64,000 nucleotides of DNA from Blastocatellia bacterium (GCA_044224215.1 JBGAKX010000005.1:7350-71349), one strand, 5' to 3'; positions 32,818-58,758 are shown, counted from the stretch's first letter. The notes: generated by a model not told the origin, from the letters alone. Program-made: numbers and translations.

Positions 32818-32835
32818 CCGGCCACTTCAACCCGC

Positions 32836-37684: not shown

Positions 37685-37687
37685 TCA

Positions 37688-43025: not shown

Positions 43026-43059
43026 AGATTGACGACCTCCGGGGAGGGTGAGGTGTTGC

Positions 43060-43487
43060 GGGAGAGTGGATCTGTAAGCCGAATTCTGTTCCCGCCTTTC
43101 GGCAGGTGGCGATCATTCATCTAGGCCGGCAATTGCTCGCCGGCTCGAGCGACCTACCCGGAGGTCGTGGCCTTCCGCCCCCGAGGGAGCCTGGGCACTT
43201 GGACGGGCCGTCCTGGTTGACGCCTCCCTATTTGGTCTTGCACCGCGAGGAGTTTGCCTAGCCGCCGGATGTCACCATCGGCGCTGGTGGGCTCTTACCG
43301 CCACCGTTTCACTCATCACCTGATCCCTCTTTCGAGGGCCATCGGCTGACCTGTTCTCTGTTGCACTTGTCGTCGGGTCACCCCGCCTGGCCGTTAACCA
43401 GCTCGCTGCCCTTCAGTGTTCGGACTTTCCTCCCGCGACCCGGGCCGAAGCCCGGAACGCCGGCGATCGCCTGATCCGCTCTCCCAC
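43060..43487 (-). ncRNA. rnpB: RNase P RNA, bacterial type A
   Basis: The minus-strand transcript contains the universally conserved P4 strands GGAGGAAAGUCCG and ...ACAGAAUUCGGCUUACAG. It also contains CAACAGAGAACAGGUCAGCCGAUGGCCC, GGUAAGAGCCCACCAG, CAAGACCAAAUAGGGAGG and a P15-P17-like CCUAGAUGAAUGA region. These are collinear with E. coli M1 RNA by direct comparison from memory. P1 pairs GGGAGAGCGGAUC with GAUCCACUCUCCC. Confidence 0.85.
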
Positions 43488-43881: not shown

Positions 43882-44149
43882 CGGTGTTCTCCTCCGGGTC
43901 AATCACTGCAGTCAAGTGTCGGAAAGCGGGCCCTCTTATAGCCGCTGCGGAGTCCCGAAACAAGCCCCGCCGATGGCGGGTCAATTGGCTTGACTAATCG
44001 AGGCCCGGTGATATTCTAGGGCCCGACTTCGGCTGCCCCTGCCTTGCCGCATTCCCGCGGCCCCGCGGCAGCCGAGCCGTCTGGTTCGTTCGAATATTCA
44101 CAGCACCCGTTTTCCCATTGTTCTTCGGTCTCTTACGGAGAGGATCGCC

Positions 44150-46018
44150 ATGAACACCAGTCGTCTTCGTGTTCGCGTCGGCACGATGTCCGGACGCGTC
44201 GCGCTTGCCGCAATCGCGGTTTCCCTGCTCACCTTCAATTTTGTGCCTGCCAGCGCGCAAGGCGGGGGCTCGCGGCCCGTCGCGCACGATCGCAGCGCCC
44301 GCATCATCGAGGGGAAGGAACGCTCGATAAAGCTCAAGGGCAAGGCGTCCGAGGGCGGCAACAAGGCGCTCGTGTACACGATCTCGTCGTTCCCGCAGCA
44401 CGGAACGCTCACCGAGATGGATACGCAGAAGGGCAAGGTCACCTACACGCCCGACAGCGGCTTTTCGGGTGAGGACGCGTTTGCGTTCACCGTGAACGAC
44501 GGAACGGCCGAAAGCGATCCAGGCAATGTCCGCCTGATGGTCTACAAGCGTGGCGAAGCGCCGACCGGTCCGTCGCTGACGGCCGACGAGGTCCGAACGA
44601 TCGTGCAGGTCGCGGCGACTTCGATCAACGATTCGACAGCGGTCGTCGCCGTCATCGACCGCGCGGGACGCGTGCTTGCTGTCTACAAGCGCTCGGGCGC
44701 CAACAAGAACGACGTCGAGCGCGCGCTTGCGCTCGCACGGACGGGAGCGTTCTTCAGTAACAACGCGGCGCCGCTGTCGTCGCGTACAGTCCGCACGCTT
44801 GGCGGTGTTCACTTCCCGCCGGGCATTCGCGATGCCGGGCCGTCGGATCTTTATTCCATCGAGACGACGAACCGCGGATGTCCGTTCAACGTAACCTACA
44901 ACCCTGGCAAGGACTATCCTGTCTACACAAACCTTGATGGCACGGGTCCCGGCCTTGGTATCGGGACTGGAAAGCCGGACTTCTATGATGACGCCGGCAA
45001 GGTCGTCGATCCTGGCGGTTTCCCCATCTACAAGAACAATCAGGTTGCGGGCGGCATCGGTGTGACCGTTGCGTTTCCGTATAACCTCGGCACGCAGGGT
45101 GTCACGCAGGCGACGACGGCGGCCGAGTACGCTTCGTTCCAGGCGTCTCTCGCGCTCGGCGGGCCCGCTCTTCCACTACCTCCCCCGAACCGCGTCTACC
45201 TTGGCGGCATCGAGCTTCCGTTCTCACCGTTCCTGGACCAGATCGATCGCGGAATCCCAACACCTACTCCAACGGGTGCTGGTCCTGGCGTTGGATCGTT
45301 CGACCCGAACCGGTTCATCTTTGGCCCCGTTGCGGGCGGATTCGCACCCGACGGCTGGCTTGTAGGCCCGCTCTCGGGACGCCGGTTGACAGCTGCACAG
45401 GTCAACAACATCGTGATGAACTGCTTCAACGAGGCAAAGATCACTCGCGCAGCGATTCGTCTTCCGCTTGGTTCACCAGCGTCGATGGTTTTCGCCGTCG
45501 GAGATATTGACGGAACGCTTCTTGGTGTGTTCCGGATGCCTGATTCGACGATCTTCTCCATTGATGTTGCCATTGCAAAATCTCGAAACGTCGTCTGGTT
45601 CAGCACAGACGGGTACGTTGACCTACCTGGCATCCCTCCGGGAACTGCGGTGACAAACAACACGCTCTATGCCGGCGGTCAGCCGTTCTTCCCGATCGGC
45701 ATCAACAACAGCCAGCCAGGGCCGTTCTTTGACACGTTCCTGCGTGATGCTGCGAACCCTTGTACTCAGGGCTCTCAGCGCCGCAATCCCAACCAGAGTG
45801 GCATCGTGTGGTTCCCCGGTTCGGCGCCGCTGTTTTCTGGAAACACGATCGTCGGCGGACTGGGCGTGTCTGGTGACGGCGTCACGCAGGACGACGTGGT
45901 CACGTCCGCAGGTACGACAGGGTACGAAGCGCCTCTCGCGATTCGGGCGGACCAGGTGATCATCCGCGGCGTCCGGATGCCGTACATGAAGTTTAACCGG
46001 AATCCCCACGTTCCGTAG
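44150..46018 (+). CDS. Secreted protein: signal peptide, bacterial Ig/cadherin-like domain, two GlcG/HbpS-like (DUF336, heme-binding/degrading family) domains with large insertions
   Basis: Signal peptide (RVALAAIAVSLLTFNFVPASAQG). Ig-like segment (VYTISSFPQHGTLTEMD...YTPDSGFSGEDAFAFTVNDG). DUF336 hallmarks: TADEVRTIVQVAAT...AVVAVIDRAGRVLAVY, the GGFPI/GGQPFFPI motif, and the terminal GGLGVSGDGVTQDDVV signature. Confidence 0.6.
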   Translation: MNTSRLRVRVGTMSGRVALAAIAVSLLTFNFVPASAQGGGSRPVAHDRSARIIEGKERSIKLKGKASEGGNKALVYTISSFPQHGTLTEMDTQKGKVTYTPDSGFSGEDAFAFTVNDGTAESDPGNVRLMVYKRGEAPTGPSLTADEVRTIVQVAATSINDSTAVVAVIDRAGRVLAVYKRSGANKNDVERALALARTGAFFSNNAAPLSSRTVRTLGGVHFPPGIRDAGPSDLYSIETTNRGCPFNVTYNPGKDYPVYTNLDGTGPGLGIGTGKPDFYDDAGKVVDPGGFPIYKNNQVAGGIGVTVAFPYNLGTQGVTQATTAAEYASFQASLALGGPALPLPPPNRVYLGGIELPFSPFLDQIDRGIPTPTPTGAGPGVGSFDPNRFIFGPVAGGFAPDGWLVGPLSGRRLTAAQVNNIVMNCFNEAKITRAAIRLPLGSPASMVFAVGDIDGTLLGVFRMPDSTIFSIDVAIAKSRNVVWFSTDGYVDLPGIPPGTAVTNNTLYAGGQPFFPIGINNSQPGPFFDTFLRDAANPCTQGSQRRNPNQSGIVWFPGSAPLFSGNTIVGGLGVSGDGVTQDDVVTSAGTTGYEAPLAIRADQVIIRGVRMPYMKFNRNPHVP

Positions 46019-46028
46019 GCCAACTGCC

Positions 46029-48503
46029 ATGCGCCACGCTCATTCGCGGCCAGTTCTCAGCACCCGCCTGCTCGTCGTCATAGGATTGGTGCTCGTTGGC
46101 GGTGGATTCGCGGTCGTCGGTCTCTCCCAGGGCCGAGGTCCCGCAGCCGCTGCGACCGGGCCGCAGAAGGGCCCCGGCACCGGGTTCCTTCACAAAGATC
46201 ATTCGGGAATGGTGGCAATTCCGGGCCAGGCGGGGAAGACCCGCGAGCTGAAATGCGAGACGTGCCACGCGGTCTCCGTGGAGGCTCCGGATACAAACCG
46301 CTTCCCGGGTCCGGATCTCGAGAAGTACCCCGAGACGGCGAAGCTGGCCGCCACCGGCACCAAGCTGAACGGTCTTGGATTTCCCAAGTCGCACTCTGCG
46401 TGCGTCGAGTGTCACAAGGAGATCGCTCCCGGTCCTGGCGGCAAGTACTGCGGCCTTTGTCATGACACGCTGCAGAAGCTGCGCGTATTCCCGAAGGCGA
46501 ACGTCCAGCTGTCGCAGTTCGCCGACCGCTACTCGCACAAGGCCCACAAGGACTACTACGACAACAATCCCGACACCTTCAAGACCGCCGCGGTTTCAAG
46601 GCCCGCTGCGTCGCACGGCATTTTCGGGTCCGCGACCACGTTCGGTACGGCGGACATCCTGCGTGTCTCGTACGTCGCGCCGCCGGCTGAAAAGGGGCTT
46701 CGGTGCTCGACGTGCCACATCCCGGCGACGGGCGGCGTGAAGATGCAGCTGCCGCTGCATGCGAACTGCTTTGAATGCCACGCGAACGAAAAGATTGTCT
46801 CCAAGAAGGCCGACACCTATGCGATGAACTGCGTCGGCTGCCACGCCAACATGGCCTTGAACGATCCGACGGTCGACGAGAAGCTCAAGCCGGTCAAGGA
46901 CGCACTGAACGCGATCGCTCCGGTCATCGATCCGTTCCGTGTCGTCATCACGCCGTCCGGCGCGGGACACGCGCAGTTCAACCACGTCGGCGGCGCCGCG
47001 AAGTACCACGAGGTCCTCAAACCGGATGCCGGCAAGAGCGCCGGGAAGACCATCGAAGGCAAGATGGCCTGCCTGTTCTGCCACACATCGGTGGAGAAGG
47101 CCGCAACGCGCGCCCAGGTCATGGCGTTCGCGGTCAAGAAGACCGATCCTCAGCTCGTCCAGCCGCCGGCGTCCGCATGCGTGGTGTGCCACGTCCACGC
47201 GGTGCAGATGGTCGTTCCCGACAAGCCGTCCAAGACGGGCCGCGCGGGATGCACGGTCTGTCATACGGCGGCCGATGCCGCCAAGCCGGCTCCCGCAACA
47301 CACAGTCTGGGCGAGGCAGCTCCTGCGGCGACGCCGGCAAAGCCCGAGGCGACGCCTCCCGCGGCAAAGCCCGAACCGGCCAAGCCCACAACCGCGCCGG
47401 CGGCGAAACCCGAGCCTGCAAAGCCGGCGGCTCCGAAGCCCGAGCCGACAAAACCTGCGACCGCGCCGGCCGCGAAGCCCGTGGAAACCCCGAAGGTTGA
47501 GACGCCCAAACCGGCCGCGACGCCTGCGCCGGCAAAGCCCGAGACGCCAAAGGTCGAGCCACCCAAGCCCGCACCGACAGAAGCTCCCAAGACGGCCCCG
47601 GCGCCCGAACCCAAGCCTGCAGAACCCGCGGCGCCCAAGCCTCAGGCTGCACCTGCAAGCGGCGGCACGGTCGACTACTCAAAGGGCTACCCGCCCACAG
47701 CGCCCGGCTCGTCGCACCTGAGCCTACCGAACCCGATGCTGCTTGGGGATCCCAAGACCAGCGACCAGTGGGGTCTTGACGGAACGTGGGGGATTTCGAA
47801 GCTCACACACCAGGATCACTCCGAGAAGTACAAGGTTTCGTGCGCCACGTGCCATCACACGAACGGTGCAGGTAACGCGGCGATCGGCGAGCAGGTGCAG
47901 CGTTGCGTGAGCTGCCACAAGGCCGAGGGCGACGAGAAGAACCCGTCCAGCAAGGACGGCGACGAACTCTGGGTGAAGAACGCATTCCACCTGGGTGAAA
48001 CCGGTTGCATCGAGTGTCACAAGCGCGAGTCGGCCAAGAACCCGAATTCGAAGGCTGCGACGACGTGCGCAGGATGCCACCAGCCGAAAGGCAGCGCTGA
48101 CGCGGACCGCGTGCTGAAGGGCCTGTTCCGCGACGCTACGACGGCCGTCGCGTTCAAGGTTCCCGGCTTTGCAGACACGTGGCCTCGCTGGCAGACGCGG
48201 CCTGCCGGATTCGGACTGCTCGGTGGCCAAAGCCTCGCAGGGTCGTTCGGCGGCGCGTCTGTTCGGGCGCTCGTTTGCGACGTTCCGGCGCGACTCTGGT
48301 ATGCACAGTTCGCCGGGTCCGGGTCGCATCGCTCGGCGCGTGTCGTTTCGCACGCGCGGTGGCAACGGCATGAACCCTCGCATGCCGCGCGTTCTCGATC
48401 GCCGCAGGTTCAACTCGCGCCCTCGTGGCGTGGCGAACTGCCCAGACTCGCACTGGCGATCGCGCTCGTGGACCGGAACGCCGGGCACGGCTACAGGATC
48501 TGA
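46029..48503 (+). CDS. Multiheme cytochrome c, 13 CxxCH motifs, with an internal Pro/Ala/Lys-rich linker and a C-terminal tetraheme module
   Basis: Signal peptide/TM helix (LLVVIGLVLVGGGFAVVGL). Thirteen CxxCH motifs were counted (CETCH, CVECH, CGLCH, CSTCH, CFECH, CVGCH, CLFCH, CVVCH, CTVCH, CATCH, CVSCH, CIECH, CAGCH). The start lies 11 nt after the upstream gene stop. The last ~135 codons are Arg-rich and atypical (see findings). Confidence 0.8.
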   Translation: MRHAHSRPVLSTRLLVVIGLVLVGGGFAVVGLSQGRGPAAAATGPQKGPGTGFLHKDHSGMVAIPGQAGKTRELKCETCHAVSVEAPDTNRFPGPDLEKYPETAKLAATGTKLNGLGFPKSHSACVECHKEIAPGPGGKYCGLCHDTLQKLRVFPKANVQLSQFADRYSHKAHKDYYDNNPDTFKTAAVSRPAASHGIFGSATTFGTADILRVSYVAPPAEKGLRCSTCHIPATGGVKMQLPLHANCFECHANEKIVSKKADTYAMNCVGCHANMALNDPTVDEKLKPVKDALNAIAPVIDPFRVVITPSGAGHAQFNHVGGAAKYHEVLKPDAGKSAGKTIEGKMACLFCHTSVEKAATRAQVMAFAVKKTDPQLVQPPASACVVCHVHAVQMVVPDKPSKTGRAGCTVCHTAADAAKPAPATHSLGEAAPAATPAKPEATPPAAKPEPAKPTTAPAAKPEPAKPAAPKPEPTKPATAPAAKPVETPKVETPKPAATPAPAKPETPKVEPPKPAPTEAPKTAPAPEPKPAEPAAPKPQAAPASGGTVDYSKGYPPTAPGSSHLSLPNPMLLGDPKTSDQWGLDGTWGISKLTHQDHSEKYKVSCATCHHTNGAGNAAIGEQVQRCVSCHKAEGDEKNPSSKDGDELWVKNAFHLGETGCIECHKRESAKNPNSKAATTCAGCHQPKGSADADRVLKGLFRDATTAVAFKVPGFADTWPRWQTRPAGFGLLGGQSLAGSFGGASVRALVCDVPARLWYAQFAGSGSHRSARVVSHARWQRHEPSHAARSRSPQVQLAPSWRGELPRLALAIALVDRNAGHGYRI
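47272..47660 (+). repeat. Low-complexity tandem AKPEP/TPKVE-type repeats (Pro/Ala/Lys/Glu-rich linker) inside the 13-heme cytochrome gene
   Basis: Visible degenerate nucleotide repeats (aagcccgagcc..., gcgccggc...) encoding AAKPEPAKPTTAPAAKPEPAKPAAPKPEPTKP... Confidence 0.6.
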
Positions 48504-48662
48504 TGGGCGGCGGCCTGCACCTGGCGTTCGCCTTGTTTTCATCGAGTCGCTTCGAATTGGATTGAATCTCACGCAGGCAACTGGTTCAGGACGTGCCGGC
48601 GTTCCGCAAGTCGCGAGGTTGGCGACGAGTCCGGAGAGCCGTGTCCTCGACACACTCAGACC

Positions 48663-49523
48663 ATGAAAAGAACGATCCCTCTTCTTGCCCTCGTCGCGGC
48701 ACTCTCGGTCACCGCGTGGCTTTCCGACCGGACGAGCGCCCAGGATACGGCGTACAACTATGGGTCGTTCGATCACAAGGAGCACGACGCCGCACTCGAC
48801 AAATCCGCGCAGGAGCGCATCGCGTGCGACGTCTGCCATCGGCGCGACGACGCGAGCTCGCAGCTCTACTTTCCGGGCCACAATGCGTGCATTCAGTGTC
48901 ACGCGACGCAGTTCACGTCCCAGTCGCTCCAGATCTGCGCCGTCTGCCACAAGGACGTCGCGACGCAGGGGCGCGCGCTGAAGGACTTTCCCGCGCAGCG
49001 CAAGGACTACGGCGTCAGGTTCGACGGCGCGGGCAACAAGAGCCAGCACGTCGTCCACATGAAGGAAGCGCTCCCGGACGGCACCAAGATGTCGTGCTCC
49101 TTCTGCCATGCGGCGCAGGGCTCGAATATGGCATTCCCCTCGCACCCCGAGTGCTACGCGTGCCACACGCCAGGTGCGAATTCGAAGGCGGCGTCGCAGG
49201 AATTGAGCACGTGCTCGGTCTGCCACCCCGGCGCTACCGAGCCCAACTCCGAGATGCGACGTCTTGTCAGCACCCGACGCAATGACGCGCTGCCCTACCG
49301 GTTCCGGCATCTCGACCATAACCGGTCCGGCCGGATCGGCAACGATTGCGCCAAGTGCCACAACGACGCGGCCGGAATTCACGTGGCGTCCACCGCAACG
49401 CGCGAGCATCGGGTCAAACCGGGGTTCAACTGCTACGAGTGCCACCGAGGCGGGGGTCTGTCGCGGATCACTGAGACATCGTGCGGAAGCTGTCACGGCG
49501 TCGTCGTGTTCCCGCCGCTGTAG
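48663..49523 (+). CDS. Multiheme cytochrome c, 9 CxxCH motifs, periplasmic
   Basis: Signal peptide MKRTIPLLALVAALSVTAWLS. Nine CxxCH motifs (CDVCH, CIQCH, CAVCH, CSFCH, CYACH, CSVCH, CAKCH, CYECH, CGSCH). Confidence 0.8.
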   Translation: MKRTIPLLALVAALSVTAWLSDRTSAQDTAYNYGSFDHKEHDAALDKSAQERIACDVCHRRDDASSQLYFPGHNACIQCHATQFTSQSLQICAVCHKDVATQGRALKDFPAQRKDYGVRFDGAGNKSQHVVHMKEALPDGTKMSCSFCHAAQGSNMAFPSHPECYACHTPGANSKAASQELSTCSVCHPGATEPNSEMRRLVSTRRNDALPYRFRHLDHNRSGRIGNDCAKCHNDAAGIHVASTATREHRVKPGFNCYECHRGGGLSRITETSCGSCHGVVVFPPL

Positions 49524-49754
49524 ATTCATCCGTCCTCGAGCGCGCCGCGACAATCCTGCAGGAACAGGGCGTTGACATAACAGGGTCACGCACTTAGGAT
49601 TGTTGTCCTGCCGTGCGTCGAGCACGTGCACTCGGGACCTTAGCGAGATCCGACGTTGAAGCACCCAGGGAAGGCCGGCCACGAATGCGCTTCGGCGCCC
49701 GGTGTGAGCCGCACCCGTTTCTTGGAACACATTGAAGCCGGAGACCACACTTTC

Positions 49755-50291
49755 ATGAGATATGCCAAGGCCGTTCTCTGCATCTGCGCGCTGGCAGTAT
49801 TTGGCGCGCTGTCATTCCACGTTGCGACCTCGTCCGCTGCCTCCGTTGATCCGACCCAGGCTGCGGTTGACTACTCGAAGGGCTACCCTGTGGAAGCTCC
49901 GGGTGCGTCGCACATGAGCCTTCCGAACCCCATGCTGCTCGGCGACCCCAAGACGAGCGACCAGTGGGGCCTCGATGACACGTGGGGAATCGCGAAATTC
50001 ACGCACCAGGACCACACCGAGAAATACAAGGTGTCGTGCCATACGTGCCACCATACAAACGGCAAGGACAATGCCGCCCTGACCGAGAACGTCGACCGTT
50101 GCGTGAAGTGCCACATGGCCGAGGGCAACGAGAAGAACCCGACGAACGCGGCCGGCGACGAACTCGACATCAAGAACGCATTTCACATCGGTGAGACGGG
50201 CTGTATCGAGTGCCACAAGCGCGAATCAGAGAAGAATCCGAACTCGAAGGCCGCCGCGACATGCGCCGGCTGCCACGAGAAGAAGGGCTAA
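49755..50291 (+). CDS. Tetraheme cytochrome c (cytochrome c3/c7-like), paralogous to the C-terminal module of the 13-heme protein
   Basis: Start ATG at 49755 (MRYAKAVLCICALAVFGALSFHVATSSAAS signal peptide). Four CxxCH motifs. About 80 % identical over ~140 aa to residues encoded at 47671-48097. Confidence 0.8.
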   Translation: MRYAKAVLCICALAVFGALSFHVATSSAASVDPTQAAVDYSKGYPVEAPGASHMSLPNPMLLGDPKTSDQWGLDDTWGIAKFTHQDHTEKYKVSCHTCHHTNGKDNAALTENVDRCVKCHMAEGNEKNPTNAAGDELDIKNAFHIGETGCIECHKRESEKNPNSKAAATCAGCHEKKG

Positions 50292-50373: not shown

Positions 50374-51927
50374 ATGTCGACACCACAGAATCCGGAAGTC
50401 GGACTCCCAGCCGATAGCCTACCCACCCAGGCGAAACAGACCTCAGGCACAAACTTCCTCGATCGCGTGCTCAAGCAGCTCAGCTCGGTTCGGTTTGGCG
50501 TATCGCTGCTGATCCTGATGATCATCCTCAGTATGACCGGGATGCTGATCATGCAGATCAACGTCGAGGGATTTGACAAGTACTACGCGACGCTCACCCC
50601 GTCGCAGCAATGGCTCTACACGGATCCGATTCTGCGAGCGATCCGCAACGTGACCGGATGGCGGCTCCAGGGATGGAACATCCTGTCGCTCGTCGACATC
50701 TACAAGTCGTACGTATTCATCACGCTGCTCGCCATTCTGACGCTGAACGTCATCCTCGCGTCGATAGACCACTTTCCAGGTGCGTGGCGTTACATCACCC
50801 GAAAGAAGCTCACGGCCTCGAAGCCGTATGTGCTTCACCAGACCTACAACGCGACGGTCGAGAGCGACGGAAGCGACGCCGAGGCGGCGCAGATTGCCGC
50901 CCTCTGTCGTCACCTTGGCTACACGCCGACGATCACGCGCGAGGCGTCGCGCACGACGGTCTTTGCAGAGCGCGGAGCGTGGAACCGGCTCGGTGCGTAC
51001 TTTGTCCACGTCGGCCTTCTCGTCATCTTCACTGCGGGATTTCTGACGTGGCGGTCGTCGCACACCGGCAGCATGACGCTCACGCCCGGCGCCGAGGCGA
51101 CGACGATTCAGGGCTTGCTGTACGACCTGGACCGCGTTCAGGTCGGCGAGTTCGCGCTTCCCTTCACCGTCGAATGCACCGACATCCAGCAGACGCTGAT
51201 CCGTCCGGACGGGTCGCTGGACGCGAGCAACACGGTCGACTGGTTCACGCGCATACGCATCGCGGACCCCGCAACGGGCAAGAACCTCGATGCCGACGTG
51301 CACATGAACAAGCCCGTCGACTATCGCGGCTACCGTTTCTTCCAGTCCAGTTATCAGAACGTTGCAAAGGCCCGGACGGTGACGCTGCAGATCGACCGGC
51401 CGAACGCGCAGCCTGAACTGGTCGAGTTGCGGGTGAACCAGCCGACGACGCTGTCCGACGGCCGTACGATCGTCTTTGCCAACTTCACCGGCAACGAGAC
51501 CGACGCAAACAACGCGACCGACTATGACAAGCCCGCCGCCGCGCTGCAGGTCGTCGGCGGAGCCGGGGGGCCGCCGCAGTCGTTCGTCGTTCGCGCGGCC
51601 GGAGCGCCTGTTGATTCGACGGGCGTCACTGCGCTCGGCGGTGCGACGGCCACGCTTGTGAGCTTTGAAAAGGTCGGAGCGAGCCACACGCTCTCGGTTC
51701 AGTACGACCCTGGTGCATGGGTTTTTTACATCGGCTCCGTTATTCTTGTGGCCGCATTGATGTCCGTGTTCTTCGCCTCGCACCGTCGAATCTGGTTTGT
51801 GCTTGAGAAGGACAAGGACGGAGCGCACAAGATCTATGTCGGCGGGCATGCCAACCGAAACCGCCCGGCGTTTGAGCGGCAGTTCAAGGACTTGGTAGCG
51901 GCGCTCGCGCCTACCGCGCCAGCGTGA
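50374..51927 (+). CDS. Cytochrome c biogenesis protein ResB/Ccs1 (system II, CcsB)
   Basis: N-terminal TM helix, large periplasmic domain, and C-terminal TM helices with the conserved His. ResB-like collinearity. Start ATG at 50374. The ORF-track start at 50191 overlaps the terminator. Confidence 0.75.
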   Translation: MSTPQNPEVGLPADSLPTQAKQTSGTNFLDRVLKQLSSVRFGVSLLILMIILSMTGMLIMQINVEGFDKYYATLTPSQQWLYTDPILRAIRNVTGWRLQGWNILSLVDIYKSYVFITLLAILTLNVILASIDHFPGAWRYITRKKLTASKPYVLHQTYNATVESDGSDAEAAQIAALCRHLGYTPTITREASRTTVFAERGAWNRLGAYFVHVGLLVIFTAGFLTWRSSHTGSMTLTPGAEATTIQGLLYDLDRVQVGEFALPFTVECTDIQQTLIRPDGSLDASNTVDWFTRIRIADPATGKNLDADVHMNKPVDYRGYRFFQSSYQNVAKARTVTLQIDRPNAQPELVELRVNQPTTLSDGRTIVFANFTGNETDANNATDYDKPAAALQVVGGAGGPPQSFVVRAAGAPVDSTGVTALGGATATLVSFEKVGASHTLSVQYDPGAWVFYIGSVILVAALMSVFFASHRRIWFVLEKDKDGAHKIYVGGHANRNRPAFERQFKDLVAALAPTAPA

Positions 51928-51937
51928 GGGAGACCGT

Positions 51938-53503
51938 ATGAGCACTATCAGTCGGATCGACGTTCACAACCTGCCATCGGGCAGCGAGCCGCTCTCGGCG
52001 CGCTTGACCGGCTGGCTGCCCGTCGCGATTCCCATCGCGCTGGCGGCGACCATCGTCTTCCTCCGGGTGCAGTTCGGCGAAACTCGCTTCCTGTATGACG
52101 GGACGCTGATTGTCCTCGCGCTCGTGTGCTTCCTGTTTGCGTCGGTGATCGGTCTCATCGAGATGTACGCGGACAAGTCGGTCCTCGGTCGATGGGGCCT
52201 CCTGATGGCATCGAGCGGCCTCATGTTCAACGCGGCCGCGTGGGGCACGCGTTGGGTCGCGGCCGGCGATCGCGAGGGCTGGATTCGATGGGTCTTCCGA
52301 TACGTGCCGTTTGCGAACCTCTATGACCTGTCGATCGCGTTTTCGATGGGCGCTGCACTGACGACCGTCATCATCTGTCGCAAGAAGGAGTCGCGCGTCG
52401 TCATGGGCGTGTCGATGTTGATGGCGGCGCTGATCGTCACGCTGGCGATCTTCCTCGGGCGCCAGTTCATCGATCTGCCGCCAGTGCTCGACAGCTACTG
52501 GCGGCCGATCCACGTCGGGATCGCGTCGACGAGCTACGGCGTCGTGCTCGTCTGCTTCAGCATTGCGGTGCTCTACCTGATCAAGGACGGGTTCAAGATC
52601 GAGGGGATGGGAGCGTTCGTCGCTATCCTCGGTCTCGGCATCTTTGGCACGATCAACCGCTTCTCGCTGATCACGAGCGGAACGTACGGCCTCAATGTCT
52701 TTTTTGGCGCGGGCGACGAGCGATCGACACTTCCGCTTCGCGCGACGGTACCGGTCGTTGGCCCGCTCATGGTCCTGGCAATGCTGCTGCTCGTCGGCGC
52801 GCTCGCGTGCTTCGCCGCCGACCTCTATCGAGGGGACGAGCGGCTCAAGAAGTACGGGTTCTGGGCGATGTGGGGCTCGGCTGCGGCGCAGCTTGGGTCG
52901 ATCGTGACGCTCTTCTACCAGATGAAGGCGATCAACGGCACGATCGCCTCGCGGATCGACCTGGCGTCGCAGGCTGGCTATCCCAAGGTTGCTGAATGGC
53001 TTACGGCCAACGGCATCCCGTTGACGACTGCCGGAGTGCAGCAGGCGAACAAGGTCTTCGAGATGAACAACGCGCAGCTCAGCGTGTCCGGAAATTCGAA
53101 CCCGGTCGAACTCGGCGCGCTGTTCACCCTGCTCGCCCTCACGGGGCTGGTTCTGATGTTCGGCTTCCGCACCGAGCGCGTCATCGAACGGCTGCCGTCG
53201 CTCGAGCGGCTCGACGAGCTCATGTACAAGACCGGCGCCGTTGCGTTTACCGGTCTCGCGATGCTGCTCATCACGGGAGCCGTCTGGGCGAACGAGTCGT
53301 GGGGACGGTACTGGGGCTGGGATTCCAAGGAGACGGGCGCGCTCGTGGCGTGGCTCGCGTACGCGGGCTTCCTGCACACGCGCATCGCTCACGGCTGGAG
53401 CGGACGACGCAGCGCGTACTTTGCCATCGTCGGATTCCTGCTCGTCATCTTCACGTATCTCGGCGTCAGCTACCTGCTGCCGGGCCTTCACTCCTACGCA
53501 TGA
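51938..53503 (+). CDS. ccsA: Cytochrome c-type biogenesis protein CcsA/ResC (heme exporter/lyase with WWD domain)
   Basis: Tryptophan-rich WWD motif (WGRYWGWDSKETGALVAWLAYA), flanking conserved His residues, and polytopic membrane topology. Confidence 0.85.
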   Translation: MSTISRIDVHNLPSGSEPLSARLTGWLPVAIPIALAATIVFLRVQFGETRFLYDGTLIVLALVCFLFASVIGLIEMYADKSVLGRWGLLMASSGLMFNAAAWGTRWVAAGDREGWIRWVFRYVPFANLYDLSIAFSMGAALTTVIICRKKESRVVMGVSMLMAALIVTLAIFLGRQFIDLPPVLDSYWRPIHVGIASTSYGVVLVCFSIAVLYLIKDGFKIEGMGAFVAILGLGIFGTINRFSLITSGTYGLNVFFGAGDERSTLPLRATVPVVGPLMVLAMLLLVGALACFAADLYRGDERLKKYGFWAMWGSAAAQLGSIVTLFYQMKAINGTIASRIDLASQAGYPKVAEWLTANGIPLTTAGVQQANKVFEMNNAQLSVSGNSNPVELGALFTLLALTGLVLMFGFRTERVIERLPSLERLDELMYKTGAVAFTGLAMLLITGAVWANESWGRYWGWDSKETGALVAWLAYAGFLHTRIAHGWSGRRSAYFAIVGFLLVIFTYLGVSYLLPGLHSYA

Positions 53504-54708: not shown

Positions 54709-57174
54709 ATGCCACAAGAGATCCAGAAGCGTCGGGATGTGCTCGCGGCCATCAAGAGTGTGGCCGCCATTGCAGACATCACCGCTGAGCATGCCGGGCA
54801 TTTCGAGCACGAGATCGACCTCGAAGTCATCGTCTACGGCCGCAACTACAACGGCAAGAAGGTCGGTCCGTACGTGCGCCTCCTCGTCTACCAGAACGGC
54901 GAGGACGTCATGCGCGAGGGCGAGTGGGGCGGGAACACGTTCTACGTCGTGGTCGAGGGCAAGGCCGACGTGCTGATCGACAGCGCGAACGGCATCGTCA
55001 AGGTCGCCGAGATATCGCAGGGCGACATCCTCGGCGAGATGTCGATCCTTGCGGGTGTGCCGCGATCCGCGACCGTTCGTGCACCGCAGGGCGGCGCCGT
55101 GAAGGTGCTCGAGGTTCAGCGTCCGGCGCTCCGGTTGCTGCGCAAGCTGCCGCATTTTGGTGAGTCGCTCGACCGGTCGTATCGCCATCACGGCAGAAAC
55201 CAGATTCTCCAGGTACTCGGGTCCGTGGAGCACCTGTCGACGGACGCGATCAAGGCGCTTGAGGGCATCTCGCAGTTCCGCGTGTACGGCAAGGGGCACG
55301 TCCTGTTCCGTGCGGGCGAGCAGATTCGTCGTGTCTACCTTCTCAAGACCGGCTGGCTGCGAATGTCGCAACAGGCTAAGACCTCGCTGCTCGCGGCGGT
55401 GCCCGGGTATGGCAACGTGAAATCGCTGTCGTGGGACACCCCGTCGCCGGACAGCTACTTTGGTCCGTCACACGCGTTCGGCCTGGAGGGCGTCCAGCAG
55501 GATGCAACGTGGCGCCACTCGGGCGTGCTGCTCGGACGCACCGAGATGCTCGAGGTGTCGGTGTCGGAGCTCCGAAAGAACCCGCAGCTCGTTGCGCTCC
55601 TTGGGCACGCGCTGCAGACCCTCGAGATCAAGGACGCGCAGGCCGACAAGGGTCCGCCGGCCCCGGTCGCCGAGGCGCAACGCGAACTGATCGCGAACGG
55701 GCTCGTCGACGGGACGAACCTGTTGCTGATGGACATGGAGCTGTGCGTCCGGTGCGGCAACTGCTCGCTTGCCTGCAATCACCAGCACGGCAACTCGAGA
55801 CTGCTGCGACGGGGCATTTCGATCACGCGCCCCGAGACGCTCAAGAAGAACTCGCATACGCAGCACCTCATGAATCCGTCGGTCTGCATGCACTGCATGG
55901 ACCCCGAGTGCATGACGGGCTGTCCGACGGGAGCGATCGGTCGCTTCCCCGGCGGCTATGTCGACATCGATCCGAAGACGTGCATCGGGTGCGGCGACTG
56001 CGCGACGCAGTGCCCGTACGACGCCATCTCGCTGATCGCGCGACGGCCAAAGCCTGGTGAGAAATCGAATGCGCTTGTCGAGATGTTCAGCCTGGCGCCT
56101 GCGCCGATACCCGAGTCGGTCGAAACGACCGAGGACCTCGTTGCGGTCAAGTGCAACCTTTGCAGCAATACGCCGCTGAACCCGCCGGGCGCGAAGTCGC
56201 GCAAGTACAGCTGCGAAGAGAACTGTCCAACTGGTGCGCTTCTGCGTGTGAGCCCGCGTGTCTACTTTGACGAGATCGCCAACATCGAGGGCGTCATCTT
56301 CAAGGACGATACGCACATCGTTTCCAAACACACGTCGCACCGCGATCCCAAGAAGCGACTCATTCACCTGCTCGGCATCGTGCTCACGCTGGCGCTTGCC
56401 GCGGTGAGCGTGGCGGCGCTTTACAGAATCGGCCGCGACAATCCGCTCCTTGGATCGTGGTTCAACTTCTACTGGTTCACCGGGATTGTTGGTCTTCTCG
56501 CGATCACGTGGGTGATGTTGTACCCGATCCGCCGACAGATCTTCCGCAAACGCGTCATTCCGTTGCGCTACTGGATGCTGTCGCATGCCTACATGGGCGT
56601 GATCGCGGGCGTGCTCCTTCTCATGCACGCCGGGACGCGCGGTGGCGGCCTGCTGACCACGTCGCTGATGATCACGTTCGACCTGGTCATCCTGACGGGG
56701 TTGTGGGGCATCGCCACGTACTACGTCGTGCCGAGAGTGCTCACAAAGATCGAGGAGCAACCGCTCCTCGTCGACGACCTCATCCTCAGACGGCAGGAAC
56801 TGACTGAGGAGATCGCGGACACGGTCGCCCGCGCGTCGCAGCCGACGCGTGATGCGATCGAGAAGGGCGTCATTCCGCACTTCCTGACGTTTGGCTATCT
56901 GCTGGGACAGTATTTCTCGGCAAAGCCGCTCGCGGTGAATACTGCAGAAGCCCGCAAGCATTTTGAGCAGACGGCGATGACGCTTCCTCCCAACGAGCGC
57001 GATTCGTTCTTTGGCGCTGTCGAGCGCGCGGCGACGCTGCGTCGGGTCGACGCGCTCATCCTGCTGCACCGGTCGCTCAAGGCGTGGCTCGCACCGCACG
57101 TCCTGACGACGTCGCTCATGCTCGCCCTGATGATCGTGCACATCATTCAGGTCATCTATTTCGCCGTGAAATGA
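54709..57174 (+). CDS. Cyclic-nucleotide-binding (2x cNMP) domain protein fused to a four-cluster [4Fe-4S] ferredoxin module and a C-terminal His-containing polytopic membrane domain
   Basis: cNMP-binding signature GEMSIL...RSATVRA and a second degenerate CAP-like domain. Cysteine motifs: CVRCGNCSLAC, CMHCMDPECMTGCP, CIGCGDCATQCP, and CNLCSN...C-x3-CP (the NrfC/PsrB-like tetra-cluster pattern). At least 5 C-terminal TM helices. Confidence 0.7.
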   Translation: MPQEIQKRRDVLAAIKSVAAIADITAEHAGHFEHEIDLEVIVYGRNYNGKKVGPYVRLLVYQNGEDVMREGEWGGNTFYVVVEGKADVLIDSANGIVKVAEISQGDILGEMSILAGVPRSATVRAPQGGAVKVLEVQRPALRLLRKLPHFGESLDRSYRHHGRNQILQVLGSVEHLSTDAIKALEGISQFRVYGKGHVLFRAGEQIRRVYLLKTGWLRMSQQAKTSLLAAVPGYGNVKSLSWDTPSPDSYFGPSHAFGLEGVQQDATWRHSGVLLGRTEMLEVSVSELRKNPQLVALLGHALQTLEIKDAQADKGPPAPVAEAQRELIANGLVDGTNLLLMDMELCVRCGNCSLACNHQHGNSRLLRRGISITRPETLKKNSHTQHLMNPSVCMHCMDPECMTGCPTGAIGRFPGGYVDIDPKTCIGCGDCATQCPYDAISLIARRPKPGEKSNALVEMFSLAPAPIPESVETTEDLVAVKCNLCSNTPLNPPGAKSRKYSCEENCPTGALLRVSPRVYFDEIANIEGVIFKDDTHIVSKHTSHRDPKKRLIHLLGIVLTLALAAVSVAALYRIGRDNPLLGSWFNFYWFTGIVGLLAITWVMLYPIRRQIFRKRVIPLRYWMLSHAYMGVIAGVLLLMHAGTRGGGLLTTSLMITFDLVILTGLWGIATYYVVPRVLTKIEEQPLLVDDLILRRQELTEEIADTVARASQPTRDAIEKGVIPHFLTFGYLLGQYFSAKPLAVNTAEARKHFEQTAMTLPPNERDSFFGAVERAATLRRVDALILLHRSLKAWLAPHVLTTSLMLALMIVHIIQVIYFAVK

Positions 57175-57176
57175 GG

Positions 57177-57199
57177 GCAAGGGCCCGCCCGGCCCTTGC
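57177..57199 (+). terminator. 9-bp perfect hairpin (GCAAGGGCC-cgccc-GGCCCTTGC) followed by TTCCTC, 3 nt after the stop
   Basis: Seen directly. Confidence 0.5.
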
Positions 57200-57231
57200 T
57201 TCCTCGAGGCGCTCGAACCGCAACCTACGCC

Positions 57232-58701
57232 ATGGCAACGAGCAAATTCACTATCATTCGCAAGGACCTCCAGACGGACCCGTCTGTTGTCGACAGTGAC
57301 GGCCTCACGATCGGGCGCCTTGTCAGCAACGACCTGCCGCTCAACCACCCCGAGGTTTCGCGCACGCACGCGGGTATCAAGGAGGTCGGTGGCGACTACT
57401 GGATATTCAACCTCTCGAATGCCAACGGGACCATCCTCAACGGTGCGCCGGTAGACAGCGCACCGCTGGCGGCTGGCGACGTCATTCAGCTCGGGCCATT
57501 CACGTTGCTTGTTTCGTTCACCGATCGCGTGCTGACGCTCACGGTCGAGGTGAGCGTCAACCCGATGCGCGTCGAGAATGCCGGCGCAGCGGGTGCGACG
57601 GTCGATCAGGCCGGCAAGACGATGATGCTCAACCCGGCCATGTTGGCTGCCCAGCAGCAGAAGGCAGCGCCGGGCGGCACTCAGCGACTGGCAATGACAG
57701 GCAAGCTCACCGGCATGCTCGCCAAGCCGGAAGAGCTCGCGCTGAAGGTCTTCTGGGAGAAGCGCCAGCGCGACGAAGGCAAGATGGCCGAGCGCACGGA
57801 CCTGAAGCCGAACCTTCAAAAGGGCCGTGTCGGCAAGATCCGCTTCAACTGGAGATCGTCGTCCGACCTGCGCAGGCCGTGGCCCGTCGGGCTGTTTCTG
57901 TGGGGTACGATCCTTGTCGCGGTGGGCGCGATCGCAGCGACGTTTCTCTACAAGCAGGCGTACACGAAGGGGCCGCTCGCCGACGTGCATACGCGCACCG
58001 CGCTCGCTCAGGCAGAGCCGGCTCTCGCGATCGCAAAGACCGCAAACGCCAACTCGTGCACGACGTGCCACTCGCTCACAAAGTCGATGGCCGGCCAGTG
58101 TGCCGAGTGCCACACGACGCCCGGGTTCAAGTCTACCGTTTCGCACGAACACGAGATGGCCGGCGTCACGTGCTCCGAGTGCCATGGACAGGACCATCGC
58201 GGCAACGCATTCAGGCTCGCGGCGGCCGAGACGTCTTGCGACACGTGTCACAGGCAGGGCTACGTCTTCAAGAGCGTTGCCCAGGGGAAGGACATCGTCC
58301 TGCAGACGCCGCACGGCGGCGCGAACATCGGCTACCCCGTGACCAACGGCCAGTGGACGTGGGCCGGCTGGCCTGAAGAGAAATGGAAGAAGCGCGGATT
58401 GCCGAAGACCGCGGCGGCCTTTGACATCAAGGGCCAGTTCCACGTCATCCACGTCGACAACGGAAAGCCGCTGGAGCAGGTTCAGTGCTCGGACTGCCAC
58501 ACCAAGGGCTTCGAGCCTGCAAACATCACGAAGGGCGTCCGCGAGTCGTGCGCGTCGTGCCACGGCGACACTGTGGCCCAGGCGGGCGCGTCGCCGTCGA
58601 GGGGCGCGCAGTGCACGTCCTGCCACCAGCAGCATACCGAGGGCAAGGACCCGTACGCGCTTGTGCGCGCGCGCGAGGTCAACGCGGCTCGAACAAAATG
58701 A
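57232..58701 (+). CDS. FHA-domain protein fused via one TM helix to a periplasmic heptaheme cytochrome c
   Basis: N-terminal FHA fold (TIGRLVSNDLPLNHPEVSRTHAGI...GDYWIFNLSNANGTILNG, i.e. the GR...S.H...N.NGT pattern). TM helix PVGLFLWGTILVAVGAIAATFLY. Seven CxxCH motifs (CTTCH, CAECH, CSECH, CDTCH, CSDCH, CASCH, CTSCH). Confidence 0.75.
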   Translation: MATSKFTIIRKDLQTDPSVVDSDGLTIGRLVSNDLPLNHPEVSRTHAGIKEVGGDYWIFNLSNANGTILNGAPVDSAPLAAGDVIQLGPFTLLVSFTDRVLTLTVEVSVNPMRVENAGAAGATVDQAGKTMMLNPAMLAAQQQKAAPGGTQRLAMTGKLTGMLAKPEELALKVFWEKRQRDEGKMAERTDLKPNLQKGRVGKIRFNWRSSSDLRRPWPVGLFLWGTILVAVGAIAATFLYKQAYTKGPLADVHTRTALAQAEPALAIAKTANANSCTTCHSLTKSMAGQCAECHTTPGFKSTVSHEHEMAGVTCSECHGQDHRGNAFRLAAAETSCDTCHRQGYVFKSVAQGKDIVLQTPHGGANIGYPVTNGQWTWAGWPEEKWKKRGLPKTAAAFDIKGQFHVIHVDNGKPLEQVQCSDCHTKGFEPANITKGVRESCASCHGDTVAQAGASPSRGAQCTSCHQQHTEGKDPYALVRAREVNAARTK

Positions 58702-58758
58702 TCGGCGCTCATGGACTCCCCGTCCGGCGCAATGTGATGGACCGGTGAAACGTACATC

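What the first reader, a model, noticed from the sequence alone, without database searches (positions are those of the whole stretch)
47671..50291. Recent duplication: the C-terminal tetraheme module of the 13-heme cytochrome is about 80 % identical to a stand-alone tetraheme cytochrome 1.7 kb downstream
Residues VDYSKGYP...CAGCH occur almost verbatim at 47671-48097 and 49755-50291, with nucleotide identity also visible. This indicates module shuffling or duplication inside the cluster. The free tetraheme protein may be a soluble shuttle mimicking the docking end of the large cytochrome.
Basis: seen in the sequence. Interest (0 to 1): 0.55.

Follow-up and report, generated by a model that had tools for sequence, protein, structure and literature searches.

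The report
Old cytochrome c3 copy grafted onto nonaheme
The last four-heme domain of a 13-heme cytochrome really is about 80 % identical to a free four-heme cytochrome c3 gene nearby, but the copy is old, not recent, and is an ordinary case of multiheme cytochromes swapping modules.

Summary
The repeat is real. It is an ungapped 141-codon match, 47670-48092 against 49866-50288, with 79.4 % amino-acid and 77.1 % nucleotide identity (BLASTP E = 2e-88). "Recent" is not supported. Third codon positions are only 57 % identical and dS is about 1.2, which is saturated, while dN/dS is 0.12. A second genome (L015) carries both copies as separate orthologues at 85-87 %, and I found no gene-conversion tracts.

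The architecture is ancient: nonaheme domain, a Pro/Ala/Lys-rich linker of 76-139 residues, a c3 module, and a free c3 gene downstream. It recurs in homologues only 30-48 % identical to this protein. In those distant homologues the fused module is only 41 % identical to that genome's own free c3.

In the window's lineage the fused module nests inside the free-c3 clade (98-100 % bootstrap, plus shared indel states). So a free-type c3 copy replaced the ancestral cargo, or was re-grafted after the cargo was lost, before the window and L015 lineages split. Closer relatives carry no cargo or a different one.

Both copies keep all four CxxCH motifs and the four distal histidines. The most likely function, by inference only, is a tethered and a diffusible version of one periplasmic electron carrier. 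Interest is modest.

The parts
44150..46018 (+). Secreted protein with Big_9/cadherin-like and HbpS-like (heme-binding) domains. It is the first gene of the conserved cluster.
   Evidence: Pfam PF03928, PF17963 and PF17892. It sits in the same position in L011, L013 and L016. A promoter-like site lies at 43990-44017 (a consensus match only).
46029..47264 (+). N-terminal hydrophobic signal or anchor, followed by the nonaheme domain ('nonaheme A', hemes 1-9) of the 13-heme cytochrome.
   Evidence: Nine CxxCH motifs at residues 76-412. Pfam c7, MtrC-II/IV and paired-CXXCH hits. Orthologues are 77 % (L015), 57-58 % (L007/L009/L010), 56 % (L013) and 39 % (L011) identical.
47265..47669 (+). Low-complexity Pro/Ala/Lys/Glu/Thr linker of about 134-135 residues.
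   Evidence: 91 % of residues are P, A, K, E or T, and 30 % are Pro. Imperfect direct repeats are present (families D2, D3 and D5), but TRF finds no array. There is a 15-nt (EPAKP) length difference from the 99 %-identical L016 at 47411.
47670..48092 (+). Repeat copy 1: the C-terminal tetraheme cytochrome c3 module (hemes 10-13).
   Evidence: Pfam PF02085 at 59.5 bits. 79.4 % aa identity to copy 2. It belongs to the free-type clade.
48093..48503 (+). 137-codon tail after the last heme, of uncertain status.
   Evidence: Codon periodicity is weak, with GC1/2/3 of 0.72/0.61/0.74 against 0.57/0.50/0.80 in the module. Even so, it is 30 % identical to the tail of fragment P0012 (E = 4e-9). It shows no significant similarity to the tails of distant fused homologues.
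48663..49523 (+). Separate nonaheme cytochrome ('nonaheme B') lying between the two copies.
   Evidence: Nine CxxCH motifs. Only 26 % local identity to nonaheme A. Orthologues are 86 % (L015) and 68 % (L013) identical.
49755..50291 (+). Free tetraheme cytochrome c3 gene (178 aa, with a signal peptide). Repeat copy 2 is 49866-50288.
   Evidence: Pfam PF02085 at 47.2 bits. PDB c3 2cy3 at E = 3e-6 by profile search. AF2 model with pLDDT 89.9; best fold match is c3 3cao. Orthologues P0002-P0011 are all free proteins. A promoter-like site at 49572-49600 is conserved in L015.
50374..53503 (+). ResB (50374-51927) and CcsA (51938-53503): System II cytochrome c maturation genes immediately downstream.
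   Evidence: Pfam PF05140 and PF01578. Synteny is conserved in every related locus examined. The ResB start at 50374 is inferred from the gene call in L016.

Best explanation
The two copies are old paralogues of one tetraheme class III cytochrome c3.

The ancestral, widely conserved gene cluster already encoded both forms. One was a 13-heme protein built as nonaheme domain, long Pro/Ala/Lys-rich linker, then c3-type cargo domain. The other was a separate free periplasmic c3 gene. The cargo and the free protein were strongly diverged, about 40 % identical.

In the lineage that contains this window, the cargo position became occupied by a copy of the mature part of the free-type c3. This happened either by in-place replacement (an ectopic recombination or conversion-like event with the gene 1.7 kb downstream) or by loss followed by re-grafting. 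It happened before the window and L015 lineages separated.

Since then both copies have evolved independently under purifying selection, and both keep all eight heme-ligand histidines and all four CxxCH motifs.

Functionally, by inference, the cell makes the same electron-carrying c3 domain in two forms. One diffuses freely in the periplasm and probably has its own promoter. The other is leashed to a nonaheme scaffold by a flexible tether of about 134 residues. That tether cannot form a continuous heme wire, so electrons would have to move by tethered diffusion of the domain.
For: Shown by the tools:
- The repeat is real and has sharp borders.
- dS is 1.16, dN is 0.144 and dN/dS is 0.12. The window-L015 orthologue pairs also have dS of about 1.
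- The cluster HbpS-like / 13-heme / nonaheme B / free c3 / ResB / CcsA is present in L016, L015 and L013, and in L011/L012 without the ResB and CcsA genes.
- In L013 and L011 the fused module is only 41 % identical to that genome's own free c3.
- The window's fused module is 39 % identical to L013's fused module but 74 % identical to L013's free c3. Over the same genome pair, nonaheme A is 56 %, nonaheme B 68 % and free c3 73 % identical.
- In an NJ tree with 500 bootstraps, the clade of all Blastocatellia-type free c3 plus WIN_fused, L015_fused, P0012 and P0027 is separated from every other fused module at 98-100 %. WIN_fused + L015_fused has 97 % support and WIN_free + L015_free (+P0027) has 85 %.
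- Indel characters agree. The other fused modules carry a 6-residue insert before heme 3 and an extra residue before heme 1, and they lack VDYSKGYP. The window's fused module has the free-type state at each of these.
- There is no post-speciation conversion. Informative site patterns are 23 (orthology): 7: 5, and the longest identical run is 14 nt (permutation P = 0.98).
- Nine His are conserved in both copies. H56 (nearly invariant), H59, H72 and H116, together with the four CxxCH motifs, are conserved across 79 family members.
- The linker is 91 % P/A/K/E/T.

Inferred: the tethered and free carrier roles, by analogy with PgcA (PMC11520253) and with cytochrome c2/cy (PMC7876108).
Against: - The trees are neighbour-joining on about 140 columns. 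Where the fused clade sits inside the free-type clade is unresolved, so a donor other than the resident free c3 (horizontal transfer from a related species) cannot be excluded.
- P0012 is a fused fragment whose tail matches the window's tail, yet it does not cluster with WIN and L015 fused modules.
- Only four fused proteins with a free-type module are known (window, L016, L015, P0012). A metagenome scan added none.
- Replacement and loss-plus-regain are equally parsimonious, and the tails do not decide between them.
- Localisation, redox partners, tether flexibility and the promoter are not demonstrated. The N-terminal segment may be a cleaved signal peptide rather than a membrane anchor.
Confidence: 0.7

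Rival explanations
1. Recent duplication: the free c3 gene, or the module, was copied within this genome a short time ago.
For: Identity is high at both protein and DNA level, the two copies share orientation, and they lie 1.7 kb apart.
Against: dS is 1.16 and third-position identity is 57 %. Both copies have their own orthologues in L015, and the split is supported at 97 % and 85-92 % bootstrap. Identity between the paralogues (79 %) is lower than between orthologues (85-87 %) and falls within the 68-87 % range seen between species. No flanking similarity remains.
Confidence: 0.03
2. A single ancient duplication dating from the origin of the 13-heme architecture, with vertical descent of both copies everywhere. 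On this view the 79 % identity reflects only strong constraint.
For: The architecture with a fused c3 plus a free c3 is present in homologues down to 30 % identity. The c3 family evolves slowly.
Against: In L013 and L011 the fused and free copies are only 41 % identical. The window's fused module is 74 % identical to L013's free c3 but 39 % to L013's fused module. Tree and indels place it in the free-type clade at 98-100 %. Differences in evolutionary rate alone cannot produce this pattern.
Confidence: 0.05
3. Ongoing concerted evolution: repeated gene conversion between the fused module and the free gene keeps them alike within each genome.
For: The two lie close together in the same orientation within one cluster, and one old conversion-like event is part of the best explanation. 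P0012's fused module carries several free-like residues.
Against: Within-genome paralogues are less alike than orthologues. Site patterns favour orthology 23: 7. No identical run is longer than expected by chance (14 nt, P = 0.98).
Confidence: 0.07
4. The module was acquired from another organism's free-type c3 by horizontal transfer, not from the resident gene.
For: The fused clade is nearly equidistant from all the free-type c3 proteins compared (72-79 % identity). Its position within that clade is unresolved.
Against: The highest identities are to the window's and L015's own free c3 (79 % each), and dN to the resident copy (0.144) is lower than to L013's free c3 (0.183). A donor 1.7 kb away is the simpler source.
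Confidence: 0.12
5. Assembly artefact or chimeric contig that creates a false fusion or a false repeat.
For: The linker is low-complexity and differs in length between assemblies. P0015 looks like a version truncated within the linker.
Against: Three independent assemblies (the window, L016 and L015) share the architecture, and P0012 shows the same module and tail. The copies differ at 23 % of bases.
Confidence: 0.02

Closest known systems
Tetraheme cytochrome c3 (class III, Pfam PF02085), for example the Desulfovibrio/Desulfomicrobium c3 structures 2cy3, 1w7o and 3cao
   Same: Four CxxCH motifs plus four further invariant His, which gives the bis-His pattern. Pfam scores are above the gathering threshold. 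A profile search hits 2cy3 at E = 3e-6. The AF2 model's best fold match is 3cao (probability 0.99, TM 0.63 normalised to the target).
   Different: Sequence identity is only about 25-30 %. There is a conserved N-terminal extension of about 45 residues (VDYSKGYP...LPNPMLLGDPKTSDQWG) that classical c3 lacks. The host is Acidobacteriota (Blastocatellia), not a sulfate reducer. No hydrogenase is encoded in the cluster.
Multi-domain c3/c7 cytochromes: nonaheme cytochrome c 1duw, 16-heme Hmc, Geobacter dodecaheme GSU1996 (3ov0)
   Same: They are polypeptides built from repeated c3- or c7-like modules. 1duw is the second-best fold match, and Pfam c7 and c3_2 models hit the nonaheme parts.
   Different: In those proteins the modules are packed or closely linked, so the hemes form a continuous chain. 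Here about 134 residues of Pro/Ala/Lys-rich spacer separate the 9-heme and 4-heme parts.
PgcA of Geobacter sulfurreducens, the 'tethered diffusion' cytochrome (PMC11520253, PMC10570954)
   Same: Heme domains are joined by long, flexible, Pro-rich, low-complexity tethers instead of forming a packed heme chain.
   Different: PgcA has three monoheme domains and (PT)x repeats, and it is extracellular. Here a 9-heme and a 4-heme domain are joined by one P/A/K/E/T linker. There is no sequence relationship, and flexibility has not been shown.
The soluble cytochrome c2 and membrane-tethered cytochrome cy pair of Rhodobacter capsulatus (PMC7876108)
   Same: One genome encodes a diffusible carrier and also a homologous carrier domain held on a flexible linker.
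   Different: Those are monoheme class I cytochromes anchored directly to the membrane. Here the carrier is a tetraheme c3 anchored to another multiheme domain. Whether the two forms share partners is unknown.
'Grafting and pruning' of modules in multiheme cytochrome evolution (Soares et al. 2022, PMC9250108; bioRxiv 10.1101/2025.05.29.656830)
   Same: Heme modules and non-cytochrome domains are gained, lost and exchanged at one position of a conserved scaffold. The states seen here are old-type c3, free-type c3, no cargo, FGE-sulfatase + DUF4384, and DUF4394 inserted in the linker.
   Different: Those studies concern NrfA/ONR/MccA-type families. This Acidobacteriota family and its linker-borne cargo site were not found in the literature searches I ran.

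Membership tests
Class III tetraheme cytochrome c3 (PF02085) | Four c-type heme-binding motifs (CxxCH or CxxxxCH) within about 100-140 residues | tested here: met
   Four CxxCH motifs in each 141-residue copy.
Class III tetraheme cytochrome c3 (PF02085) | Four additional conserved histidines that provide bis-His axial ligation | tested here: met
   H56 (at least 90 % conserved), H59, H72 and H116 are conserved across 79 aligned family members, and all are present in both window copies. This is sequence-level evidence only; ligation itself was not observed.
Class III tetraheme cytochrome c3 (PF02085) | Family profile score above the curated threshold | tested here: met
   PF02085 scores 59.5 bits (fused) and 47.2 bits (free) against a cutoff of 22.9.
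Class III tetraheme cytochrome c3 (PF02085) | c3 fold | tested here: met
Class III tetraheme cytochrome c3 (PF02085) | Low-potential hemes and a periplasmic electron-carrier role | not testable with these tools
   This needs redox titration and partner assays.
Recent (young) segmental duplication | Low synonymous divergence between the copies | tested here: not met
   pS is 0.59, dS is 1.16, and third-position identity is 57 %.
Recent (young) segmental duplication | Restricted to this genome, with no orthologous pair in relatives | tested here: not met
   L015 has both copies, and each clusters with its window counterpart.
Recent (young) segmental duplication | Similarity extends into the flanking non-coding or non-constrained DNA | tested here: not met
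   Identity drops to 10-40 % within 30 nt of both borders.
Concerted evolution by gene conversion | Paralogues within a genome are more alike than orthologues between genomes, or identity tracts are longer than chance | tested here: not met
   Paralogues are 77-79 % identical against 85-87 % for orthologues. Site patterns are 23: 7: 5, and the longest identical run is 14 nt with P = 0.98.
Tethered-diffusion cytochromes (PgcA type) | Heme domains separated by a long, low-complexity, Pro-rich tether with no intervening hemes | tested here: met
   There are 192 residues between heme motifs 9 and 10. About 134 of these are linker, with 91 % P/A/K/E/T and 30 % Pro. The linker is 76-139 residues long in 10 of 11 fused homologues; the exception, P0033, has a DUF4394 domain inserted.
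Tethered-diffusion cytochromes (PgcA type) | (PT)x repeat tethers, monoheme domains and homology to PgcA | tested here: not met
   The linker is of the PAPK/PEPAKP type, not (PT)x, and the domains carry 9 and 4 hemes. This is therefore a functional analogy, not family membership.
Tethered-diffusion cytochromes (PgcA type) | Demonstrated conformational spread and inter-domain electron transfer by diffusion | not testable with these tools
   This needs SAXS, AUC, NMR and kinetics.
Soluble + tethered carrier pair (c2/cy type) | A free carrier and a homologous linker-borne carrier domain encoded in the same genome | tested here: met
   Free gene 49755-50291 and module 47670-48092, 79 % identical.
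Soluble + tethered carrier pair (c2/cy type) | The tethered form is anchored in the membrane | tested here: inconclusive
   The N-terminus MRHAHSRPVLSTRLLVVIGLVLVGGGFAVVGLSQG has a hydrophobic stretch of about 20 residues. This could be an uncleaved anchor or a signal peptide, and no predictor was available.

The most novel reading that the evidence does not exclude
The 13-heme protein represents a widespread but undescribed Acidobacteriota class of 'heme domain on a leash' cytochromes. In this class a nonaheme scaffold carries a c3 cargo on a Pro-rich tether of 76-139 residues, long enough to span much of the periplasm. On this reading, the window's lineage swapped the ancestral specialised cargo for a copy of its own soluble shuttle, so the tethered and the diffusible carrier now present the same docking surface to the same partners. 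That would be a natural experiment in converting a diffusing electron carrier into a tethered one.
Probability: 0.25. Interest if true: 0.55.

Novelty: new variant of a known kind. Interest (0 to 1): 0.33.

Why it matters
As a duplication, the finding is ordinary. It shows that high paralogue identity in a slowly evolving heme protein is no guide to age.

The more useful result is the context. The case documents, with clear polarity, a cargo exchange at one linker-borne position of a conserved multiheme scaffold, which is 'grafting and pruning' seen at fine scale.

It also identifies a small, uncharacterised Acidobacteriota gene cluster: HbpS-like protein, a 9+4-heme tethered cytochrome, a second nonaheme cytochrome, a free c3, and ResB/CcsA. 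The long-tether architecture of this cluster parallels the tethered-diffusion mechanism recently shown for Geobacter PgcA.

If the tethered and free carrier model holds, the pair offers a ready-made comparison of diffusive and tethered electron transfer using nearly the same domain.

Tried and rejected
- The first AF2 run, using the 13-sequence alignment that included the signal peptide, gave pLDDT 49.8 and was discarded. A 79-sequence alignment gave a usable model.
- Tandem Repeats Finder found no array in the linker. Only imperfect direct repeats are present there.
- Rfam found nothing in 44-51 kb. Its only hit in the window is RNase P RNA upstream.
- I compared the post-heme tails to decide between in-place replacement and loss plus regain. 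The window tail matches only P0012 (E = 4e-9) and not the tails of distant fused proteins, so the question stays open.
- I tested whether [nonaheme B + free c3] is a split duplicate of [nonaheme A + module]. The two nonaheme parts share only 26 % local identity, so this was rejected as a recent unit duplication.
- The metagenome scan returned 32 loci, of which only five are close relatives. All five are free c3 genes, so no new fused free-type example was found.
- The genome scan returned only four loci, all with a nonaheme A that lacks the module or with too little upstream sequence to tell.
- The 674-aa antisense ORF at 47724-49748 was treated as a high-GC artefact because it overlaps well-supported genes on the + strand.
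Full report
**1.
The + strand ORF 46029-48503 encodes 824 residues with 13 CxxCH motifs. Nine lie between residues 76 and 412, and four lie between residues 605 and 684. Residues 548-688 (nt 47670-48092) align without any gap to residues 38-178 (nt 49866-50288) of a 178-residue protein encoded at 49755-50291. Identity is 112/141 residues (79.4 %) and 326/423 bases (77.1 %), with BLASTP E = 2e-88. The repeat finder finds the same pair at a spacing of 2196 nt.

Identity in 30-nt windows is 63-87 % inside the repeat and 10-40 % just outside both borders. The similarity starts at 49866, about nine residues past the likely cleavage site, and runs to the last codon before the stop. The fused copy therefore corresponds to the mature free protein.

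**2. What the module is.**
Both copies hit Pfam Cytochrom_CIII (PF02085) well above threshold, at 59.5 and 47.2 bits against a cutoff of 22.9. The nearest solved relatives by sequence are Desulfovibrio-type cytochromes c3: 2cy3 at E = 1e-4 with a single sequence and 3e-6 with a profile.

In a 79-sequence family alignment, the four CxxCH motifs and four further histidines are invariant or nearly so, which is the bis-His pattern of c3. All of them are kept in both window copies.

An AF2 model from that alignment is confident (pLDDT 89.9, pTM 0.82). Its best PDB fold matches are acidic c3 3cao (probability 0.99, TM 0.63 normalised to the target, E = 0.022) and nonaheme cytochrome 1duw. An earlier model from a shallow alignment was unusable.

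**3. The surroundings.**
The cluster reads, in order:
- an HbpS-like/Big_9 secreted protein (44150-46018);
- the 13-heme cytochrome;
- a second, separate nonaheme cytochrome (48663-49523), which shares only 26 % local identity with the first nonaheme part;
- the free c3;
- ResB and CcsA (System II cytochrome c maturation);
- a TPR protein;
- a cNMP-binding 4Fe-4S protein;
- an FHA-domain multiheme cytochrome;
- a ferredoxin/pyridine-nucleotide oxidoreductase.

Between heme 9 and the c3 module lie about 134 residues that are 91 % Pro/Ala/Lys/Glu/Thr. After the last heme the ORF runs on for 137 codons with weak codon periodicity. This tail is nevertheless 30 % identical (E = 4e-9) to the tail of a fused fragment from another metagenome.

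The organism is a Blastocatellia (Acidobacteriota) MAG. A 99 %-identical NCBI assembly (L016, GCA_035429825.1) has the same genes.

**4. The duplication is not recent.**
- Third codon positions are 57 % identical.
- Nei-Gojobori estimates give pS 0.59, dS 1.16, dN 0.144 and dN/dS 0.12. Synonymous sites are therefore saturated, and both copies are under purifying selection.
- A second genome, L015 (GCA_046331365.1), is 77 % identical in nonaheme A and 86 % in nonaheme B, and it has both copies. Fused-fused identity is 85 % and free-free identity is 87 %, while all fused-free comparisons are 75-79 %.
- In NJ trees WIN_fused + L015_fused (97-98 %) and WIN_free + L015_free (85-92 %) form separate clades.
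- Four-taxon site patterns favour orthology by 23: 7: 5, and the longest identical run (14 nt) is no longer than chance predicts (P = 0.98). There is thus no sign of conversion since the two lineages split.
- Free c3 orthologues from other genomes are 68-87 % identical to one another, so 79 % identity is simply normal for this family.

**5. The architecture is ancient, but this module is a replacement.**
Homologues of the 13-heme protein that are only 48 % (P0018/L013), 30 % (P0025/L011) and 32 % (P0026) identical have the same layout of nine hemes, Pro-rich linker, four-heme c3 module and tail. So do several 50 %-cluster representatives (P0031, P0033, P0038, P0039, P0041). L013 has the same cluster from the HbpS-like gene through ResB and CcsA. 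L011 has the same genes up to the free c3, with an FHA gene inserted before it and no ResB or CcsA after it.

In those genomes the fused module is only 41 % identical to the genome's own free c3. Between the window and L013, nonaheme A is 56 % identical, nonaheme B 68 % and free c3 73 %. The fused modules, however, are only 39 % identical, while the window's fused module is 74 % identical to L013's free c3.

The split between two groups has 98-100 % bootstrap support:
- the VDYSKGYP-type sequences, meaning all Blastocatellia free c3 plus the fused modules of the window, L015 and P0012, and P0027;
- all other fused modules together with distant free c3 proteins.

Indels agree with the tree. The other fused modules carry a six-residue insert (HG[ND]xxNxxNxAGC) and one extra residue before heme 1, and they lack the VDYSKGYP N-terminus. 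The window's fused module has the free-type state at each of these.

The simplest reading is that a copy of a free-type c3 came to occupy the cargo position of an old scaffold before the window and L015 lineages split.

**6. The cargo position is labile.**
- Relatives with 55-58 % identical nonaheme A (L007, L009, L010, P0017, P0019-P0024) end in a short Pro/Ala/Lys stub with no module.
- P0016, whose nonaheme part is 78 % identical, carries FGE-sulfatase and DUF4384 domains instead.
- P0033 has a DUF4394 domain inserted in the linker.
- P0027 joins a CarboxypepD_reg domain, through an Ala/Pro linker, to a free-type c3 that is sister to the window's free c3.

Given this distribution, in-place replacement plus a separate loss is as parsimonious as loss followed by regain. 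The tails do not discriminate between the two. This behaviour matches the 'grafting and pruning' mode described for multiheme cytochromes (PMC9250108; bioRxiv 10.1101/2025.05.29.656830).

**7. How it probably works (inference).**
A 134-residue Pro-rich spacer rules out a continuous heme chain between heme 9 and heme 10. Electrons would therefore have to pass by movement of the c3 domain on its tether. This is the mechanism shown experimentally for Geobacter PgcA, described as the first of a class of tethered-diffusion electron-transfer proteins (PMC11520253).

The same genome also encodes the c3 domain as a free protein with a signal peptide. Upstream of that gene is a TTGACA-17-TAGGAT element, conserved in L015 (a consensus match only). 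The arrangement recalls the soluble c2 and tethered cy pair of Rhodobacter (PMC7876108).

Partners, potentials, localisation and tether flexibility are untested. These comparisons are analogies, not membership claims.

**8. Rarity and the literature.**
An exhaustive HMMER search of 1.84 billion cluster representatives gave 162 hits at E <= 1e-3, 23 at <= 1e-10 and 3 at <= 1e-30. The family is therefore small. Literature searches found no description of this cluster or architecture. The Danish wastewater Acidobacteriota study notes only that large multi-CXXCH proteins of unknown substrate occur in all its MAGs.

**9. Verdict.**
The 'recent' interpretation is rejected. Module shuffling is confirmed in a more specific form: an old graft of a free-type c3 onto an ancient tethered-cargo scaffold. 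The functional idea is plausible but untested. Interest is modest, because this is a clean example of a known evolutionary mode in an uncharacterised Acidobacteriota cytochrome cluster.

Noticed in passing
window 43059-43482 (- strand): Bacterial RNase P RNA class A (RF00010, 253.7 bits, full length) lies just upstream of the cytochrome cluster. ORFs listed over this region are spurious.
   Followed up: no
window 48093-48662: The 13-heme ORF continues for 137 codons past the end of the c3 homology with almost no codon periodicity (GC1/2/3 of 0.72/0.61/0.74). A 160-nt gap then precedes nonaheme B. In L013, L011 and L015 the next gene starts within 7 nt of the stop or overlaps it. The tail resembles only the tail of P0012 (E = 4e-9). 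Many distant fused homologues end in a hydrophobic stretch followed by ...I*. The role of the tail is unknown.
   Followed up: partly
window 47411 (linker) compared with L016: A 15-nt in-frame length difference (an extra EPAKP in L016), together with a cluster of substitutions, distinguishes two assemblies that are otherwise 99 % identical. This is either linker-length polymorphism or assembly slippage in low-complexity DNA.
   Followed up: partly
P0016, P0033, P0027 (proteins from other metagenomes): The same nonaheme scaffold carries other cargo: FGE-sulfatase + DUF4384 in P0016 and a DUF4394 insertion in the linker of P0033. Separately, a free-type c3 is fused to a CarboxypepD_reg domain in P0027. 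P0016 comes from a 3-kb contig and could be chimeric.
   Followed up: partly
L007, L009, L010 (Blastocatellia MAGs), about 7.3-8.7 kb in each locus: Orthologues of nonaheme A end in a Pro/Ala/Lys stub of about 55 residues with a conserved ...RE(M/T)(R/H)LVP* C-terminus and no c3 module. They also have a second Pro/Ala/Lys-rich stretch right after the signal peptide.
   Followed up: partly
window 49572-49600 (+): A sigma-70-like TTGACA-17-TAGGAT element lies in the 231-nt gap upstream of the free c3 gene and is conserved base for base in L015. This suggests the free c3 has its own promoter. The RBS context GAAGCCGGAGACCACAC...ATG is also conserved in L015 and L013.
   Followed up: partly
window 54709-60435 (+): Downstream genes include a cNMP-binding protein with 4Fe-4S clusters (821 aa), an FHA-domain protein fused to a multiheme cytochrome (501 aa), and a ferredoxin/pyridine-nucleotide-disulfide oxidoreductase. 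The cNMP/Fer4 gene is syntenic in L001. An FHA gene sits inside the cluster in L011, next to a GAF-guanylate-cyclase gene. Together these hint at cyclic-nucleotide or phospho-signalling control of the cytochromes.
   Followed up: no
window 30400-38506: Sucrose synthase (30400-32817, -) and a sucrose-phosphate synthase/phosphatase fusion (32836-35121, -) lie next to an ABC sugar-uptake system (35085-38506, +).
   Followed up: no
L015 (GCA_046331365.1): NCBI labels this MAG Vicinamibacterales, yet its cluster proteins are 77-87 % identical to those of the Blastocatellia-labelled window genome. One of the two taxonomic labels is probably wrong.
   Followed up: no
window 47724-49748 (- strand): A 674-aa antisense ORF spans the c3 module, the tail and nonaheme B. 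It is an artefact of high GC content, because it overlaps well-supported + strand genes.
   Followed up: partly
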